A DNA stretch of 64,000 nucleotides from Eledone cirrhosa (lineage: Eukaryota), in contig OZ024741.1 in assembly GCA_964016885.1 (NCBI GenBank), positions 145,886,001-145,950,000 on the forward strand, read 5' to 3'. The notes beneath the pieces are model-generated. The model was not told the origin of the DNA. It saw nothing but the letters and a program-made list of their open reading frames with translations, and did not search any database. Shown piece after piece: positions 21,335-48,745 of this stretch (positions are counted from its first letter, which is position 1; the number at the start of each line of letters is the position of its first letter). A program made the position numbers and the translations under genes.

Positions 21335-22641
21335 CAACTATAGACCTATCACATGTCTGTCCGTAATGTGGAAACTGTTAACAAGCATTGTGTCTGGGGA
21401 AATCTACCATCACCTCCACAGAAAGAACTTGTTACCGGACGAACAGAAAGGATGCTGAAAGAAGTCCCATAGTACAAAGGACCAGTTACTTATTGATAAG
21501 ATGGTAATGAGGAATTGCAAGAGGAGACACACTGGTCTTGCCATGGGATGGATAGACTACAAAAAGGCATTCGACATGGTACCTCATTCTTGGATAACCA
21601 AAAGCGTAGAGATCTTCAAGGTGGCAGATAACATCAGACAGTTGTTGGGCAAAAGTTTGAAGTCCTGGGAAACAGAGTTAACATTGGGTGGAGAATCCTT
21701 GGGAGGCGTGAAGATCAAGAGAGGTATCTTCCAGGGAGATAGTCTGTCCTCTCTGTTGTTTGTCCTTGCCCTGATCCCCCTGACCATTATACTGCGAAAC
21801 GTGAAAGAAGGATACAATTTGGGAAAGGGAGAGCTTACCTCCCTAACTGAATTTAGAGATCCACAGACATGGAACTGGTTGAAAAGAGGAGACTTTAAAA
21901 AGGCTACAGAAGGAATGCTAATGGCTGCGCAAGAGCAGGCCCTCAAAACGAAGTGGGTGAAACACCATATTTACAGGGTGGAGGCTAGCCCACTGTGTAG
22001 GATCTGTGGAGAAAGAGAGGAGACTGTGGCTCACATTGTATCCGAGTGTAAACACCTAGCCCAGACTCACTATAAAGGCTGGAAACTTGATGTGATGGGC
22101 AGGGTGATCCACTGGTACCTATGCAAAGTAAATAATTTACCACATTCTGAGAAGTGGTATGAGCATAAGCCAGAGTTGGTGATAGGAAACGATCAGGTGA
22201 AGGTGCTGTGGGATTTTAGGTTACAGACGGACAAGAAACTGGAACACAATAGACCTGACCTGGTGGTTTTGGACAAGGAAAAAAGATCATGCCTGATTGT
22301 GGATATAGCCTGTCCATTCGACACGAGAGTGCAAGAGAAGGAGAGGGAGAAAATTAACCGACACCAGGACTTAAAATGGGAGGTAAAAAGGATTTGGAAC
22401 TGCCATGAAGTCAAAGTGGTCCCGATTGTCATAGGCGCATTAGGTACTATCTCAAAGAGTTTCCAAGGATGGTTAAAGAAAATTGGTCGCACCCCGCTTT
22501 TTGGAACACTTCAAAAGGCATGCTTGCTGGGAACAGCAAGAACCCTCTGAAACGTCCTGAATATCTGAGGCTGCAGGTAGTGGCTTGATATTTATTTCAA
22601 CAAACTTTCCAGTTAAATAACATCAATGACTGAGACTCAAA

Positions 22642-25262: not shown

Positions 25263-25440
25263 TCATCATCATTTCATTTCATTTTACGTCAACTTTTTCC
25301 CTGCTTGCAAGGGTGGGACGGGAACTGATTCTGGCTTGATTTCTACAGCTGGATGCCCTTCCTAACACCAACCTCATTTACAGTGAGTGCTGGGTGCTTT
25401 TTTTTGCCGTGGCACCTCCACGACCACTTTACAGTGGAAT
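25260..25440 (-). mobile_element. RTE LINE 3'-end fragment with (GAT)n tail
   Basis: Reverse complement of 48490-48745 (TTTCTACAGCTGGATGCCCTTCCTAACACCAACCTCATTTACAGTGAGTGCTGGGTGC). Confidence 0.85.
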
Positions 25441-25454
25441 GATAGGGACCCCAG

Positions 25455-25608
25455 TCCCTATCATCTCATTTCTACAGCTGAGTAAACTGGAGCAACGTGA
25501 AATAAAGTGTCTTGCTCAAGGAAACAACACATCACCCGGTCTGAGAATTGAACTCACAACCTTTCGATTGCAAGGCCAATGCTCTAACCACTAAGCCATG
25601 TGCCTCCA
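25455..25608 (-). mobile_element. tRNA-derived SINE 5' part (CORE-like)
   Basis: Minus strand: TGGCTTAGTGGTTAGAGC (A-box), GAGTTCAATTC (B-box), CCTTGAGCAAGACACTTT...ACTCAGCTG. Confidence 0.8.
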
Positions 25609-25650
25609 CATATATATAAATATATATATATATATATTTATATATATTTA

Positions 25651-26210
25651 AATCTAATTGAGTTCTTAACACGCAGGGTTAAAATTGTTGAAAAAATTAA
25701 TTGACCCACGTGTAAATTATTTTACTTTCTTGTGTTTCGCGATTGCCTCCCTTTTCCGCTTCATGACGCTGTGAAATTCCTCATTCTGAGACTGCTGGAA
25801 TTTCAAATTTGGCGGTCATTATGATGCGTGGAGGGACAATTAGCTGACACGAAAACTGACAGGGGTAAAAAAATTTTTCTTATATCAATGTTTGACGGGC
25901 ATCCACTGATGATTTATAAGTGCCCACCTGCATATGTTCTTACAGAAAAATATGCAGGCTTCTACATAAACCGGACACATTCTCCCAACTTGTAGAAAAC
26001 TTATAATGAAACAATTGTTTGGAAAGAGAGATATATTTTTATTTTAATTATATCTCATATAAAATAATACAACTGGCTTTCCACAAAATACATATAGTTA
26101 GCACCCCAAACATAAAATTGGGATTATACTAAGGTATATCCTAATGTTTGTTGAGTGAGATGGTAGCCAGTCAGAGTATAGCTTAAGGCTTTCTCTGTTA
26201 TTGTATTGTA
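25651..26210 (+). mobile_element. Non-coding, highly structured HHR-bearing element (Penelope pLTR or retrozyme-like) in (TA)n
   Basis: Flanked by identical TATATATTTATATATATTTA (25631-25650, 26211-26230). Several long hairpins, a central hammerhead, and no long ORF. Confidence 0.7.
25897..26023 (+). ncRNA. Type I hammerhead ribozyme with a large multibranch stem II insertion
   Basis: TCCA(25902-05), CTGATGA(25906-12), stem II TTATAAGT/ACTTATAA, GAAA(26008-11), palindromic CAATTG, TT, TGGA(26020-23). Two hairpins lie inside stem II. Confidence 0.7.
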
Positions 26211-26243
26211 TATATATTTATATATATTTATATATATATATAC

Positions 26244-26312
<69 letters not shown>

Positions 26313-26313
<1 letters not shown>

Positions 26314-27530
26314 CGGATACATAAAGAACGAACTGACACGTAACCGGAACAAATGCACCGACGCTAGAGACCGAGACACACACACCACACATTTCCTGGA
26401 AGTACTCAAACTGAACGGATACACGACATCCACCACAAACCGTGCCAGAAAGAACAGAGGACACCACACCCGAGGCACTAACACTTGTTTCCTGAAGCTC
26501 CCACACTTCAGTGAAGAAACAACAACAGTCATCCGCAGAGCTATCAGACGAGAAGGACTAGATATCCAACTGGCCCACTCAGGTCCTTCTCTACGCGGTC
26601 AGCTAACCAAAAGACACCCCCACCAGACATGACAACTACTGCAGACTAGCCAACTGCCCCATCAACGACACAGACGTATGCCACCAGGCTTACGTCGTAT
26701 ACAGACTAGAGTGTGACAAATGCAACAACTTCTACGTAGGTAGCACCACCAGACCACTCCACATAAGAATAAAAGAACACCTCAATACTAACGCTTCCTC
26801 ATTTAAGAAACACCTAGTTAAATGCAAAAACACTGACAAAACCATAACAGTTAGGATAGAAACTAAGGAAAGAAACCTCGGCAATCTTTGAATTAAGGAA
26901 GCACTAATTATAGACAAAACACAACCACCAATTAATAATAGACTAGAACTCAACACCCAATTTCTAACTTGATAGAGCTCCTAGCCCCATATTTACACAC
27001 ACCCCACACGCACACATGCACGCACCCACACACACACACGCACACGATTACACCTCCACTTATCCTCTCTCACACATACACACACTAAACCTGTTCTAAC
27101 ACGAGATAACATCTATCCCCCACATTTACGTATAGACATATCTTCTCACACTCACACACACACTCACGTACTTACACCTTCATGCATTCTCCCACACACT
27201 TAAACAGGCATGTACAAAAAAACAACAAAAAAACATAAACAAACCCCCCTTAAAGGGAAACTACTCTTTATCCACCTAATCTTAACTCTTTGAAATTAGA
27301 GATAGAACAGATACTCTATACCATTTCCTGTCAGCATGACTTGGCAAGCTTTTTAGAACACTGGTTTGACAACTTTATTCCCTCTGAAGAAGAGATATTA
27401 TCTCGAAAATTTAGGACATTTAAATAAATCTAAGGTAAAAGACAAATTGTCAACAATATCTTTTGCATTTGCATTCTTTATTCTATGTCCATACCTGCAT
27501 TGTTTTGGCTTTATTATACATATACAAACG
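26313..27530 (+). mobile_element. Penelope-like element, 5'-truncated: RT thumb, Cys linker, C-terminal GIY-YIG endonuclease, 3'UTR
   Basis: Frame 1 reads LKLNGY...FLKLPHFSEE. After a frameshift near 26625: CRLANCPINDTDVC..AYVVYRLECDKCNNFYVGSTTRPLHIRIKEH...NL*IKEALII...PPINNRLE, stop at 26970-72. In-frame TGA at 26889. Confidence 0.9.
27381..27428 (+). ncRNA. Minimal hammerhead motif plus poly(A) signal in the Penelope terminal repeat
   Basis: CCT-CTGAAGA-A-GAGAT(ATT)ATCTC-GAAA-ATTT-AGG, then AATAAA at 27423-27428. Stem III is very short (palindromic AAATTT). Confidence 0.6.
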
Positions 27531-27575
27531 TATATATATATATATATATTTATATATATTTATATATATATATAC

Positions 27576-27659
<84 letters not shown>

Positions 27660-27663
<4 letters not shown>

Positions 27664-27899
27664 TGCATCTATACAGATGGTAATGTGAATGTGGACAGAA
27701 AAAGAGGAAAGGAAAAACTAAGAGAGAAATAGTTAAAAGTGAGGGAGAAAGAAATGAAGTTCAGGGAGTTGATGAGGGGGAATGCTGACGATGAAGAAAA
27801 AATTGAGAAGCTTATCATGGAGCCTGCAAAGCTAAACCTTACTTCAGCAGGGACTATGGCCTTAAAATGCTTCTTGTTGTACACATGCACATGCATCCA

Positions 27900-27958: not shown

Positions 27959-28214
27959 ATTATTGTTACTATATATATATATATATATATATTATTATTA
28001 TTATCACTATATATATATATATATATCCCGCTCAGACCCATGCTAGCGGTGAAAATGGACGTTAAACGATGATGATGATGATGATGATGATATATATATG
28101 TATAGTAATAATAATAATAAATCTGAAGACTAAAATCCAAAGAGGGCTCAATAAGCATCGATTCTTTGCTTAAACTTTAATCTGTTATTTTAATACATAC
28201 ATATATATATATAT

Positions 28215-28464
28215 ATGCATGGATGCATGTGCATGTGTACAACAAGAAGCATTTTAAGGCCATAGTCATTGCTGAAGCAAGGTTTAGCTTTGCAGGCTCC
28301 ATGATAAGCTTCTCGATTTTTTCTTCATCGTCAGCATTCCCCCTCATCAACTCCCTGAACTTCATTTCTTTCTCCCTCACTTTTAGCTATTTCTCTCTTA
28401 GTTTTTCCTTTCCGCTTTTTCTGTCCACATTCACATTACCATCATGCATTTGTGTATAAATGCA

Positions 28465-28502
<38 letters not shown>

Positions 28503-46100: not shown

Positions 46101-47184
46101 AACATCAATTTTTTAATATATTTTACTATGCTTGACTGAGTTGGGCAGTACATTCACACAGGTATATATAGATATACACATATATACATACATACACTAA
46201 CACATGAATATCATCTCCCTCTTTCTTTATATATGTACATACACAGGCACACATACATACACATATTATCATAATTTTAAGTTTGATCTGTTGTTACTGT
46301 TTGTGTCATTTTTTTATACTTACTGTCTTAAAAAAAAAGAAAACGTTGAATAATATAAGCCCAGATGACCTATCTGAAAACACAGATGGGGTAGCTACGC
46401 TTGGAAAGTTATTTCTTATAGTTCTGCTCAACCAGCCCACTATTATAAGGTTAAACAACAACAATTAAAATATTTTAAAACAAAAAGATTACAACTACAC
46501 CATTAATCTAAAAAGTCTATCTTATCCATCTAATCCACACATAAATAAACAAAAAATTGCAGCAAAATCAATTTCTTCTCTCTGCCAAAACTTTTTGTTG
46601 ATTTGCCAAAAATATAAATGCCATATCTATAGAAAAAACCTAGTGAGTTAGTAACCTACTCAAAACATCACAAAATACCAAAAGCTGGCCAGATAGTAAG
46701 CAGAAAACATAATTTTCATAAATTTAGTTCAGTTTACTCTTTTAATGGTTTCAATTAGATTTTGACCATTTTGTTAATCATATCTTATTTTTAAAGCCTG
46801 ACACTCATTTTTATTGATCTTTTTGTTGAACTGCTAATTTACAAGACATAAACACAAGCACATATGAAAATGTAAACACAAACATGAACACACACATGTC
46901 ATCATAGACAACAGACAAAAAATGATTATAATAGTTGTATTTTTATGTATACATGAAGGTTCAAATGCTTTCATAATATATTTGTTTTTACTCTTTTTGT
47001 TGTCACAGGTACACTTATAAGAATTACTTGTTTTTTATTCCATGTTCTGGATGCACATATCTCCATATTGTTATAATTGGATGATTAGACCATTTCTTTT
47101 TGAGACACATTACTAACTGCTTTGATAGATATATTAATCAGAAGATAAGTTATGTGATGTTTTTTTGGAATAAAAGTTTTTAGA

Positions 47185-48745
47185 TAAAAGTAAGCCACTC
47201 TACTTGGCATTTGTCGACCTTGAAAAAGCCTTTGACAGATTTCCACGTGCTGTAATCTGGTGGGCTCTTAGAAAAGTAGGAGTAGATGATTGGCTTGTGA
47301 AAGCGGTACAAGCCATGTATAGGGGAGCAGTCAGCAAAGTTAGGATTAGTAATGAGTATAGCGAGGAATTTAGCGTAGAGGTTGGGGTCCACCAGGGCTC
47401 TGTTCTTAGCCCTCTCCTGTTCATCATAATCCTGCAGGCAATAACGGAGGAGTTTAAGACCGGATGCCCATGGGAACTCCTGTATGCTGATGACCTCGCA
47501 CTTATAGCTGAATCTATGGTAGAACTAGAGAATAAATTCCAAACATGGAAGCAGGGACTAGAAAGAAAGGGTCTCAAAGTCAACATGACAAAGACTAAGG
47601 TCCTTGTAAGTAAACGAGAAAACAGAACCCAGATCCCCTCAGGGAACTGGCCTTGCTCAGTATGTAGGAAAGGTGTAGGTAGGAACTCCATTCTCTGCCC
47701 CAAATGCAAACAAAGGGTACACAAGAGATGTAGCGGGATCTCAGGAAGCTTAATTAAGAATGTAGGCTTCACATGCAGCAGCTGTGCTGGGACAGTAAGC
47801 AGCAAACAGCCACAGGAAACAATTACCACCAATCTCTGGGAAGGGCTCTGTAGAAACAGTAGACAGCTTCTGCTACCTAGGTGACAGAATTAGCAGCGGA
47901 AGTGGGTGTTCAGAAAGTACAATAACTAGGGTAAGAACGGGATGGAAGAAGTTTAGGGAACTACTACCACTGCTAGCTGCAAAAGGCCTCTCCCTCAGAA
48001 TGAAAGGCAGACTGTATGATGCGTGTATCCAAACAGCAATATTGCATGATAGTGAGACCTGGGCGCTGAAGGTGGAAGACTTACGTAGATTAGAGAGAAA
48101 CGAAGCCTGCATGCTCCGATGGATGTGTAACAGTAATATACGTGAACGACAAAGCATAAATGAATTGAGAGAGAGACTGAGCATAAAAGGAATCAAATGC
48201 TGTGTGCAGGAGAGGCGGTTGCGCTGGTATGGACATGTGATGCGTATGAAGGATGACAGCTGCATAAAAACTTGCAGAGCACAGGAAGTCGATGGAAACC
48301 GCGGAGTGGGGAGACCCAAGATGACCTGGGATGAGGTGATAAAAGCCGACCTTACCCAATTACACCTCTGAAAGGCAATGACACATGACCGTGACCTCTG
48401 GCGTCACGCAGTAATACAGAGTACCCGACGTCCCATGGGTACAAGCTGAAGCATATAGACAATATGTCCCCACACCCCCCACCGCAAGGTGGTCGTGGAG
48501 GTGCCACGGCAAAAAAGCACCCAGCCCACACTGTAAAGTGGACGTGTAGGCGCCACGAAAAAGCACCCAGCACTCACTGTAAATGAGGTTGGTGTTAGGA
48601 AAGGCATCCAGCTGTAGAAATCAAGCCAAATCAGTTCCTGTATGAGCAAGGCATGGTCAGCCGACCAGACACTGCCCACAACAGGACAACCCGTCTAACC
48701 CATGCTAGCGTGGAAGAACGGACGTAAAACGGTGATGATGATGAA
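47185..48745 (+). mobile_element. RTE-clade LINE, 5'-truncated, with a PHD finger inside the RT; one frameshift
   Basis: AFVDLEKAFD, GVHQGSVLSPLLF, LLYADD, then C4HC3 (CSVC..CPKC..H..C..CSSC). After a frameshift near 47830: VDSFCYLGD, GWKKFREL, RRLRWYGHVMR, GRPKMTW. 3'UTR ends in (GAT)n. Confidence 0.95.

What the first reader, a model, noticed from the sequence alone, without database searches (positions are those of the whole stretch)
25631..26230. 560-bp non-coding, structured, (TA)n-inserted mobile RNA (retrozyme-like) carrying that ribozyme
Seen: exact 20-bp direct repeats of an interrupted TA tract flank 25651-26210, and there is no coding capacity. Hairpins occur throughout: ACACG..GGGT/ACCC.CGTGT, GAAATTCC/GGAATTTC inside a longer arm, GAGATATA/TATATCTC, CTGGCT/AGCCAG and TATAC-TAAG-GTATA. 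It sits immediately upstream of a Penelope ORF remnant but shows no obvious similarity to that element's 3' end. Inference: either a solo terminal repeat of a separate Penelope family or a non-autonomous ribozyme retroelement mobilised by a Penelope RT/GIY-YIG.
Basis: partly seen in the sequence, partly recalled or inferred. Interest (0 to 1): 0.75.

Follow-up and report, generated by a model that had tools for sequence, protein, structure and literature searches.

The report
Branched-hammerhead retrozyme in TA repeats
This stretch is a front-shortened copy of a 738-base non-coding repeat with thousands of relatives in this animal genome; it carries an unusually branched hammerhead motif predicted to cut its own RNA and is likely pasted into TA repeats by a Penelope-like retrotransposon, possibly a Hydra-type one whose end it resembles.

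Summary
The feature is real, but 560 bp is not the unit. Window 25651-26208 is the 3' 558 nt of a 738-nt non-coding unit (3,623 first-look candidates; 40 scored, 94-97% identical). Copies are 5'-truncated monomers or head-to-tail multimers with one fixed 3' end running into (TA)n (24 of 29 arrays found by their 5' part; 4 of 4 in unselected DNA). Five subfamilies (60-87% identical) keep a type I hammerhead whose loop II is replaced by two hairpins, with compensatory changes in stems I, II, III and both hairpins; a GGGC/GCCC pseudoknot is invariant but shows no covariation. The neighbouring Penelope remnant is a separate, probably earlier insertion. The unit's ~40 nt around its fixed end resemble, in register, the end of an abundant Hydra-type Penelope-like element; two subfamilies match weakly or not at all. 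Verdict: a non-LTR retrozyme (non-autonomous Penelope-like element) in a new structural variant. Cleavage, circles and the partner are untested; no RNA run was available. This scan had already found the superfamily on other DNA (e1-8819025).

The parts
25629..25650 (+). Left copy of the 22-bp target-site duplication (interrupted TA tract); its last bases overlap the unit's A/T run at the truncation point
25651..26208 (+). 5'-truncated retrozyme copy: positions ~181-738 of the 738-nt unit (subfamily A); one hammerhead only
25897..25901 (+). 5' strand of a putative pseudoknot (GGGC[A]) pairing with 25921-25925; invariant in 5 subfamilies, no covariation
25902..26023 (+). Type I hammerhead: helix I 25902-05/26020-23, CUGAUGA 25906-12, helix II 25914-20/26000-06 (U.U at 10.1/11.1), inserted hairpins 25927-58 and 25960-97, GAAA 26008-11, palindromic helix III 26011-18, predicted cut after 26019
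   Evidence: cleavage itself untested
26020..26208 (+). Structured 189-nt 3' domain between predicted cut and fixed end, with compensatory changes between subfamilies and a conserved 20-nt block at 26140-26159
26181..26208 (+). Fixed 3' end (inferred reverse-transcription start region); resembles the end of a Hydra-type Penelope-like element in register
26209..26230 (+). Right copy of the 22-bp target-site duplication
26312..27530 (+). Neighbour, not part of the element: 5'-truncated canonical Penelope-like element (GIY-YIG remnant with stops, 3' UTR, own minimal hammerhead at 27384-27408); the tract 26209-26311 recurs exactly at 27541-27643

Best explanation
The stretch is a 5'-truncated copy of a 738-nt non-coding tandem unit that carries a hammerhead motif predicted to self-cleave and that is likely copied into (TA)n tracts by the enzymes of a Penelope-like element. 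SHOWN: multi-copy family, head-to-tail units, no ORF, fixed 3' end in (TA)n, variable 5' ends, a 22-bp target duplication here, a hammerhead core in standard order with covarying helices. INFERRED: multi-unit loci are transcribed on the + strand; two hammerheads pair through their palindromic helix III and cut (about 75% likely); the unit-length RNA circularises or stays multimeric (circle about 60%); a Penelope-like RT/GIY-YIG protein nicks (TA)n and starts reverse transcription inside the RNA 178-189 nt downstream of the cut site, runs round the template and stops at a variable point, which gives 0.7- to several-unit insertions. The best candidate driver is an abundant Hydra-type element with open ORFs (about 50%). 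The window copy has one hammerhead and 0.76 unit, so it is probably a dead end.
For: Copies: 3,623 candidates, 40 of 40 scored match at 94-100%; 4 insertions in 980 kb of unselected DNA. Fixed end: 24 of 29 distinct arrays found with the unit's 5' 241 nt end at 737-738 before TA; 4 of 4 unselected; 126 of 155 arrays overall, 61 multi-unit. Hammerhead: 98.4% of cells paired, 7 of 33 pairs change on both sides, in helices I, II, III and both inserted hairpins; slid controls 34-49% paired. Pair 10.1-11.1 is U.U in A/D, A-U in B/C, G-C (with a bulged U) in E; helix III stays palindromic while its letters change. RNAalifold on whole units recovers helices I, II and both hairpins unprompted, 40 of 158 pairs compensatory. 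Circular fold z = -5.3 to -8.6, + strand more stable in 4 of 4. Helix I 4 bp, helix II 7-8 bp and palindromic helix III fit metazoan Penelope hammerheads (PMC4209133). A fixed end inside the RNA downstream of the hammerhead fits internal initiation at AT-rich targets (PMC11167929). End similarity to the Hydra-type element: 0 of 500 shuffles for A, A2, D, E; best non-family match among 85 clusters of repeat ends.
Against: No RNA data and no cleavage assay. The isolated 134-nt motif's MFE (-33.2 kcal/mol) is a non-hammerhead fold; the hammerhead fold without pseudoknot is -27.6. The compensatory changes are a handful of events between 5 related subfamilies, not independent counts. The pseudoknot has no covariation. 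The canonical G10.1-C11.1 pair is missing in subfamily A. The Hydra-end similarity was noticed after the fact, is AT-rich and ~40 nt, and is weak for C (9 of 500) and absent for B (105 of 500). No autonomous element sharing the branched hammerhead or the 189-nt 3' domain was found in the loci held. In the one Penelope system tested in vitro, hammerhead cleavage was not needed for insertion (PMC11167929), and 8 of 9 predicted frog retrozymes did not cleave (bioRxiv 10.64898/2026.07.22.740005).
Confidence: 0.85

Rival explanations
1. The unit is the pseudo-LTR (3' UTR plus 5' UTR) of an autonomous Penelope-like family not yet seen; most copies are truncated remnants of it.
For: Hammerhead near a fixed TA-abutting end is the pseudo-LTR layout (PMC8557442); frog retrozymes are homologous to pseudo-LTRs (bioRxiv 10.64898/2026.07.22.740005); a Hydra-like ORF remnant with a long unbranched helix II and the same helix III palindrome exists in L029 and L055. 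Only the best 40 hits per DNA search were scored.
Against: Units abut units directly (61 of 155 arrays; more than 4 units; long arrays); nothing but a prior unit or flank precedes position 1 in 29 arrays; no contiguous ORF among 181 motifs; five subfamilies evolve as whole non-coding units with conserved structure.
Confidence: 0.08
2. Mobilisation needs no ribozyme action or circle: read-through multimeric linear transcripts are the template and the hammerhead fold is a protein-binding or vestigial structure.
For: Hammerhead mutants did not affect insertion in vitro for PAc (PMC11167929); non-hammerhead MFE and weak helix I; no RNA evidence here.
Against: Catalytic core letters and all three core helices are kept across units only 60-71% identical; 7 of 61 5' junctions lie within -2 to +12 nt of the predicted cut against 0.07-0.17 per nt nearby, though an AT microhomology there confounds this.
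Confidence: 0.2
3. A satellite or DNA-level (rolling-circle or cut-and-paste) repeat with incidental hairpins.
For: One subfamily forms arrays filling two 10-kb stretches; TA-targeting DNA elements are known (recalled, not tested).
Against: Dispersed over many contigs, one fixed end and one ragged end, variable target duplications, no terminal inverted repeats, strand-specific structure with covariation.
Confidence: 0.03
4. The element and the adjacent Penelope remnant are one composite insertion made by that family's RT.
For: Same orientation, same TA tract, similar divergence from nearest copies (97% and 98%); similar adjacency in L020, L055, L215.
Against: No linkage in 19 other loci of the neighbour family; its end does not resemble the unit's end (98-451 of 500 shuffles as good); flanks resolve exactly as a ~112-bp duplication around the Penelope piece, later split by the retrozyme with its own 22-bp duplication (much of it is pure TA, so lengths are soft).
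Confidence: 0.1

Closest known systems
Metazoan non-LTR retrozymes (Cervera and de la Pena 2020, PMC7229834: passages and section 14 read; Li, Clavereau and Pollet 2026, bioRxiv 10.64898/2026.07.22.740005: parts 1-3 of 5 read, supplements not seen)
   Same: Non-coding, low-GC tandem units, one type I hammerhead each, monomers to long arrays, highly self-paired predicted circle, co-occurring with Penelope-like elements; 693-765 nt lies within the 51-972 bp range of the preprint.
   Different: About twice the 170-400 nt of the tested invertebrate and axolotl RNAs; loop II replaced by a ~80-nt two-hairpin domain with a putative pseudoknot; strict fixed 3' end in (TA)n; not detected by Rfam; RNA expression and cleavage not shown.
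Minimal hammerheads of metazoan Penelope-like elements (PMC4209133, parts 1-2 of 4 read)
   Same: Helix I 4 bp, helix II 7-8 bp, palindromic helix III suited to dimer cleavage, position upstream of the fixed end.
   Different: Branched insert in place of a small loop II; 10.1-11.1 is U.U or A-U in four of five subfamilies; no ORF.
Poseidon element PAc of Anolis (PMC11167929, parts 1-2 of 4 read)
   Same: Insertion end lies inside the RNA downstream of the hammerhead; AT-rich targets.
   Different: PAc is autonomous, has two start sites (tail) in an AC-rich loop about 85-92 nt past the cut; here one dominant end 178-189 nt past the cut in an AU-rich junction.
Hydra-clade Penelope-like elements (PMC8557442, passages and section 11 read)
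   Same: (TA)n targeting; the candidate driver in this genome shows RWR, DKT, CxCx5C, CxxC and CxH motifs and lacks the CCHH cysteines; ~40-nt end similarity to the unit.
   Different: The unit shares no other detected sequence with that element; the element's hammerhead is short and ~40 nt from its end.
Pseudoknotted hammerheads (PMC3088659, passages read)
   Same: A helix linking the stem I side to loop II; U.U at 10.1-11.1 is reported as tolerated.
   Different: Here the loop II partner is a junction strand of a branched domain, and the pairing lacks covariation.

Membership tests
non-LTR retrozyme | Non-coding unit in tandem repeats (monomer to multimer) | tested here: met
non-LTR retrozyme | One type I hammerhead per unit, core in standard order | tested here: met
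non-LTR retrozyme | Loci with at least two consecutive complete hammerheads | tested here: met
   family level: L021, L016, L018, L029, L062, L079; the window copy itself has one
non-LTR retrozyme | Self-cleavage in vitro | not testable with these tools
   bench assay needed
non-LTR retrozyme | Unit-length linear and circular RNAs in tissue | not testable with these tools
   no RNA holder listed; circular fold stability only
Penelope-like element, non-autonomous | Fixed 3' end, 5' truncation, partial tandems | tested here: met
Penelope-like element, non-autonomous | Microsatellite/AT-rich target with variable duplication | tested here: met
   121 of 155 arrays end at the fixed end before TA-rich DNA; 22-bp duplication here
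Penelope-like element, non-autonomous | 3'-end similarity to an autonomous family | tested here: inconclusive
   ~40 nt to a Hydra-type element, significant for A, A2, D, E, weak for C, absent for B
Penelope-like element, non-autonomous | Optional 30-40-nt tail at the end | tested here: not met
   terminal units run at most a few bases into the next head; the feature is optional in the family
pseudo-LTR of an autonomous Penelope-like element | Contiguous with an RT/GIY-YIG ORF | tested here: not met
   0 contiguous among 181 motifs in loci L001-L240; sample biased to best hits
metazoan Penelope-type minimal hammerhead | Helix I 4-5 bp, helix II 7-8 bp, palindromic helix III | tested here: met
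metazoan Penelope-type minimal hammerhead | G10.1-C11.1 pair and small loop II | tested here: not met
   U.U in A/D, A-U in B/C, G-C only in E; loop II is a ~80-nt branched domain
non-circularly permuted (type-SGC) hammerhead | Core blocks in scrambled order | tested here: not met
   CUGAUGA, GAAA, UH come in ordinary type I order with covarying helices

The most novel reading that the evidence does not exclude
A retrozyme superfamily whose hammerhead has grown a four-way-junction, pseudoknot-braced helix II that standard searches miss, and whose ~40-nt reverse-transcription start signal is shared with a specific Hydra-clade Penelope-like element: a natural template-enzyme pair that pinpoints what a Penelope RT recognises for internal initiation.
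Probability: 0.35. Interest if true: 0.72.

Novelty: new variant of a known kind. Interest (0 to 1): 0.48.

Why it matters
How Penelope-like elements pick their start site, and which elements move animal retrozymes, are open questions. This family offers a short protein-free template with a sharply fixed start, five diverged subfamilies that mark the needed structures, and a named candidate enzyme with open reading frames in the same genome, so both questions become testable in vitro. It also shows that hammerheads with large branched helix II escape Rfam and probably short-loop descriptors, so retrozyme counts may be too low. The class of element is known, and this scan had already met the superfamily, which caps the surprise.

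Tried and rejected
Rfam: 0 hits in the window. RNA: no RNA holder listed; two coded contig sets of one sample, kind not on record, hold the family and say nothing on expression. HDV-like and other ribozyme readings of 25897-25960 were considered by eye and dropped: no matching catalytic strand, and the hammerhead reading covaries. A first regex reading pairing CUGAUGA with the GAAA at ~25942 has no helix II and is not kept in the other subfamilies. Scrambled-order hammerhead: not this motif. Search for an autonomous element with the same hammerhead: model R1 on 96 sources and on 800 kb found only the non-coding subfamilies; low-stringency BLAST of the 3' domain against 49 Penelope loci found nothing beyond the L020/L101 copy. 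The own genome could not be scanned with the RNA model, so a rare autonomous relative is not excluded. 5' junctions near the cut site: 7 of 61, confounded by AT microhomology and matched by a second cluster at +131 to +148; weak. Automatic target-duplication calls in 29 loci gave 7 shared interrupted-TA strings and missed the window's own; not used. Literature searches with no hit; one search gave no relevant paper; one search gave only the 2026 preprint and one unrelated paper ('octopus' and 'cephalopod' were guesses at the animal group, not established here). Lunse et al. 2017 (PMC5785218) is not held, so I saw nothing of it; it and the unseen supplements of the cited papers may describe long or branched helix II variants.

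Full report
Observation. The described features are in the sequence. The flanks share an exact 22-bp interrupted TA motif (25629-25650, 26209-26230), which occurs 4 times in 980 kb of unselected DNA with 1,704 TA tracts. All five hairpins are present and paired in the + strand MFE (z -6.25). There is no ORF, no similarity to the adjacent Penelope remnant and no Rfam hit.

What it is. A search of the own genome gave 3,623 first-look candidates; the 40 scored all match, 94-97% apart from the window itself. Their flanks show that the window holds only the 3' 558 nt of a 738-nt unit. Copies are truncated monomers or head-to-tail arrays. Of 29 distinct loci from that search (L027 dropped as a duplicate of L021), 28 end at unit position 736-738, but that set was selected for the 3' part. 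Two less biased sets agree: 24 of 29 distinct arrays found with the unit's first 241 nt end at 737-738 before TA (exceptions end at 729, 722, 706, 375 and 258; several loci overlap the first set), and 4 of 4 insertions in 980 kb of stretches picked at round coordinates do so. Four in 980 kb scales to about 12,000 insertions for the superfamily (Poisson range about 3,300-31,000; my arithmetic). Over all loci held, with two array loci left out, 126 of 155 arrays end within 3 nt of the fixed end, 121 of them before TA-rich DNA, and 61 have more than one unit. Five subfamilies (A, D, B, C, E; 693-765 nt) are 60-87% identical and align along their length. Subfamily D includes the long array noted earlier by this scan (e1-8819025); I fetched 20 kb of it and found units about 84% identical to A.

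The ribozyme motif. The most conserved part is a type I hammerhead in ordinary order: helix I 25902-05/26020-23, CUGAUGA 25906-12, helix II 25914-20/26000-06, GAAA 26008-11, palindromic helix III 26011-18, predicted cut after 26019. Loop II is replaced by about 80 nt holding two hairpins. On 13 distinct rows from five subfamilies, 98.4% of cells pair and 7 of 33 pairs change on both sides, spread over helices I, II, III and both hairpins; slid controls pair 34-49% (earlier alignment). These are a few events on a shallow tree, not independent counts. Position 10.1-11.1 is U.U, A-U or G-C by subfamily, and helix III stays palindromic as its letters change, as expected for dimer cleavage (PMC4209133, parts 1-2 of 4). 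RNAalifold on six whole units recovers helices I and II and both hairpins without being told, with 40 of 158 pairs compensatory. A GGGC/GCCC pairing between the strand before helix I and the junction strand after helix II is invariant, so it is possible but unproven; such pseudoknots are known (PMC3088659, passages). Against: the isolated motif's MFE is a non-hammerhead fold, 5.6 kcal/mol below the hammerhead fold scored without the pseudoknot. A long-helix-II descriptor hit 7 times in 800 kb and 0 times in three shuffled copies, so enlarged helix II recurs among this genome's hammerheads.

Is it a terminal repeat of a coding element? Among 181 family 3' motifs in loci L001-L240, a Penelope-type ORF lay within 1.5 kb upstream at 3 distinct places; two have a TA run between, and the third (L215) has that element's own hammerhead and tail before the unit begins. 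Model R1 found only the non-coding subfamilies in 96 sources and in 800 kb. The sample leans to best hits, so a rare coding relative is not excluded.

The neighbour. 26312-27530 is a 5'-truncated canonical Penelope-like element (family RT and GIY-YIG by Pfam on L041; 2,026 candidates) with its own minimal hammerhead at 27384. It is not linked to the unit in its other 19 loci. The tract 26209-26311 recurs exactly at 27541-27643, and 25620-25650 at 27532-27562. The simplest history is a Penelope insertion with a ~112-bp duplication, then the retrozyme into the upstream copy with a 22-bp duplication; this is inference and TA slippage blurs it.

Candidate driver. The ~40 nt around the unit's fixed end align in register with the first fixed end of an abundant element found next to one copy (L020; 64,821 protein candidates, open frames up to 726 aa; ends). 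No shuffle of 500 reached the score for A, A2, D or E; 9 did for C and 105 for B; the neighbour element scored at background. The four best of 4,000 unselected windows were all ends of this element, and it was the best non-family match among 85 clusters of hammerhead-linked TA-abutting ends, some of which are spurious. Its protein shows the Hydra-clade marks listed in PMC8557442 section 11 (RWR for RWK, DKT, CxCx5C, CxxC, CxH, no CCHH cysteine pair; read by eye), and that clade targets (TA)n. The link was noticed after the fact and is short and AT-rich; I put it at about even odds.

Mechanism. Shown: copy structure, target, covarying fold. Inferred: transcription of multi-unit loci, dimer-assisted cleavage, a circular or multimeric template (circular fold z -5.3 to -8.6), nicking of (TA)n and internal initiation 178-189 nt past the cut, as shown for PAc (PMC11167929, parts 1-2 of 4), then variable stop with AT microhomology at the 5' junction. 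Seven of 61 5' junctions lie at -2 to +12 of the cut, above nearby rates but confounded (lead from e1-8664355 and e1-9585305). No promoter was identified and no RNA data were available.

Comparison and novelty. It works like, and meets the testable criteria of, a non-LTR retrozyme (PMC7229834, passages and section 14; bioRxiv 10.64898/2026.07.22.740005, parts 1-3 of 5, units 51-972 bp, proposed to derive from Penelope-like elements). It differs in the branched, possibly pseudoknotted helix II and in the end-level link to a Hydra-type element. Searches found no paper describing these; the library lacks most subscription papers, including Lunse et al. 2017, and supplements were not seen. Verdict: new variant of a known kind, interest 0.48.

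Noticed in passing
window 25320-25609 (- strand): tRNA-like SINE head (A- and B-box-like motifs by eye) begins right at the left edge of the target TA tract.
   Followed up: no
window 28100-28195; L103-L125: The Hydra-type element has two fixed ends about 90 nt apart (a long tail); the window piece appears to be an inverted tail joined to the first end.
   Followed up: partly
L005 minus strand, hammerheads at 48, 358, 668: 310-bp tandem with a short U.U-type minimal hammerhead, a classical-size retrozyme candidate.
   Followed up: no
L029, L055, L054, L021, L032, L173, L176, L184, L211, L221: Several unrelated repeats carry hammerheads with 49-90-nt helix II extensions and palindromic helix III; the L029/L055 one lies downstream of a Hydra-like ORF remnant.
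   Followed up: partly
L164, L241, L242 (unit positions 1 to ~250): Subfamily D arrays contain recurring ~250-nt short units that break at an internal GTGTATT resembling the normal end, then restart at the head; possibly a template jump at microhomology.
   Followed up: no
L032-L050: The neighbour Penelope family has two 3' ends 44 nt apart, the classical tail, and frequent inverted 5' pieces.
   Followed up: partly
L266:2543-2687 (-): A further, more distant hammerhead-like motif with a ~95-nt insert and palindromic helix III.
   Followed up: no
window 27663-27896 and 28219-28466: Inverted duplication of about 240 bp separated by TA/GAT tracts (by eye).
   Followed up: no
window 21459-22550 and 47174-47884: LINE-type RT remnants, the second with a PHD finger after the RT match.
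   Followed up: no
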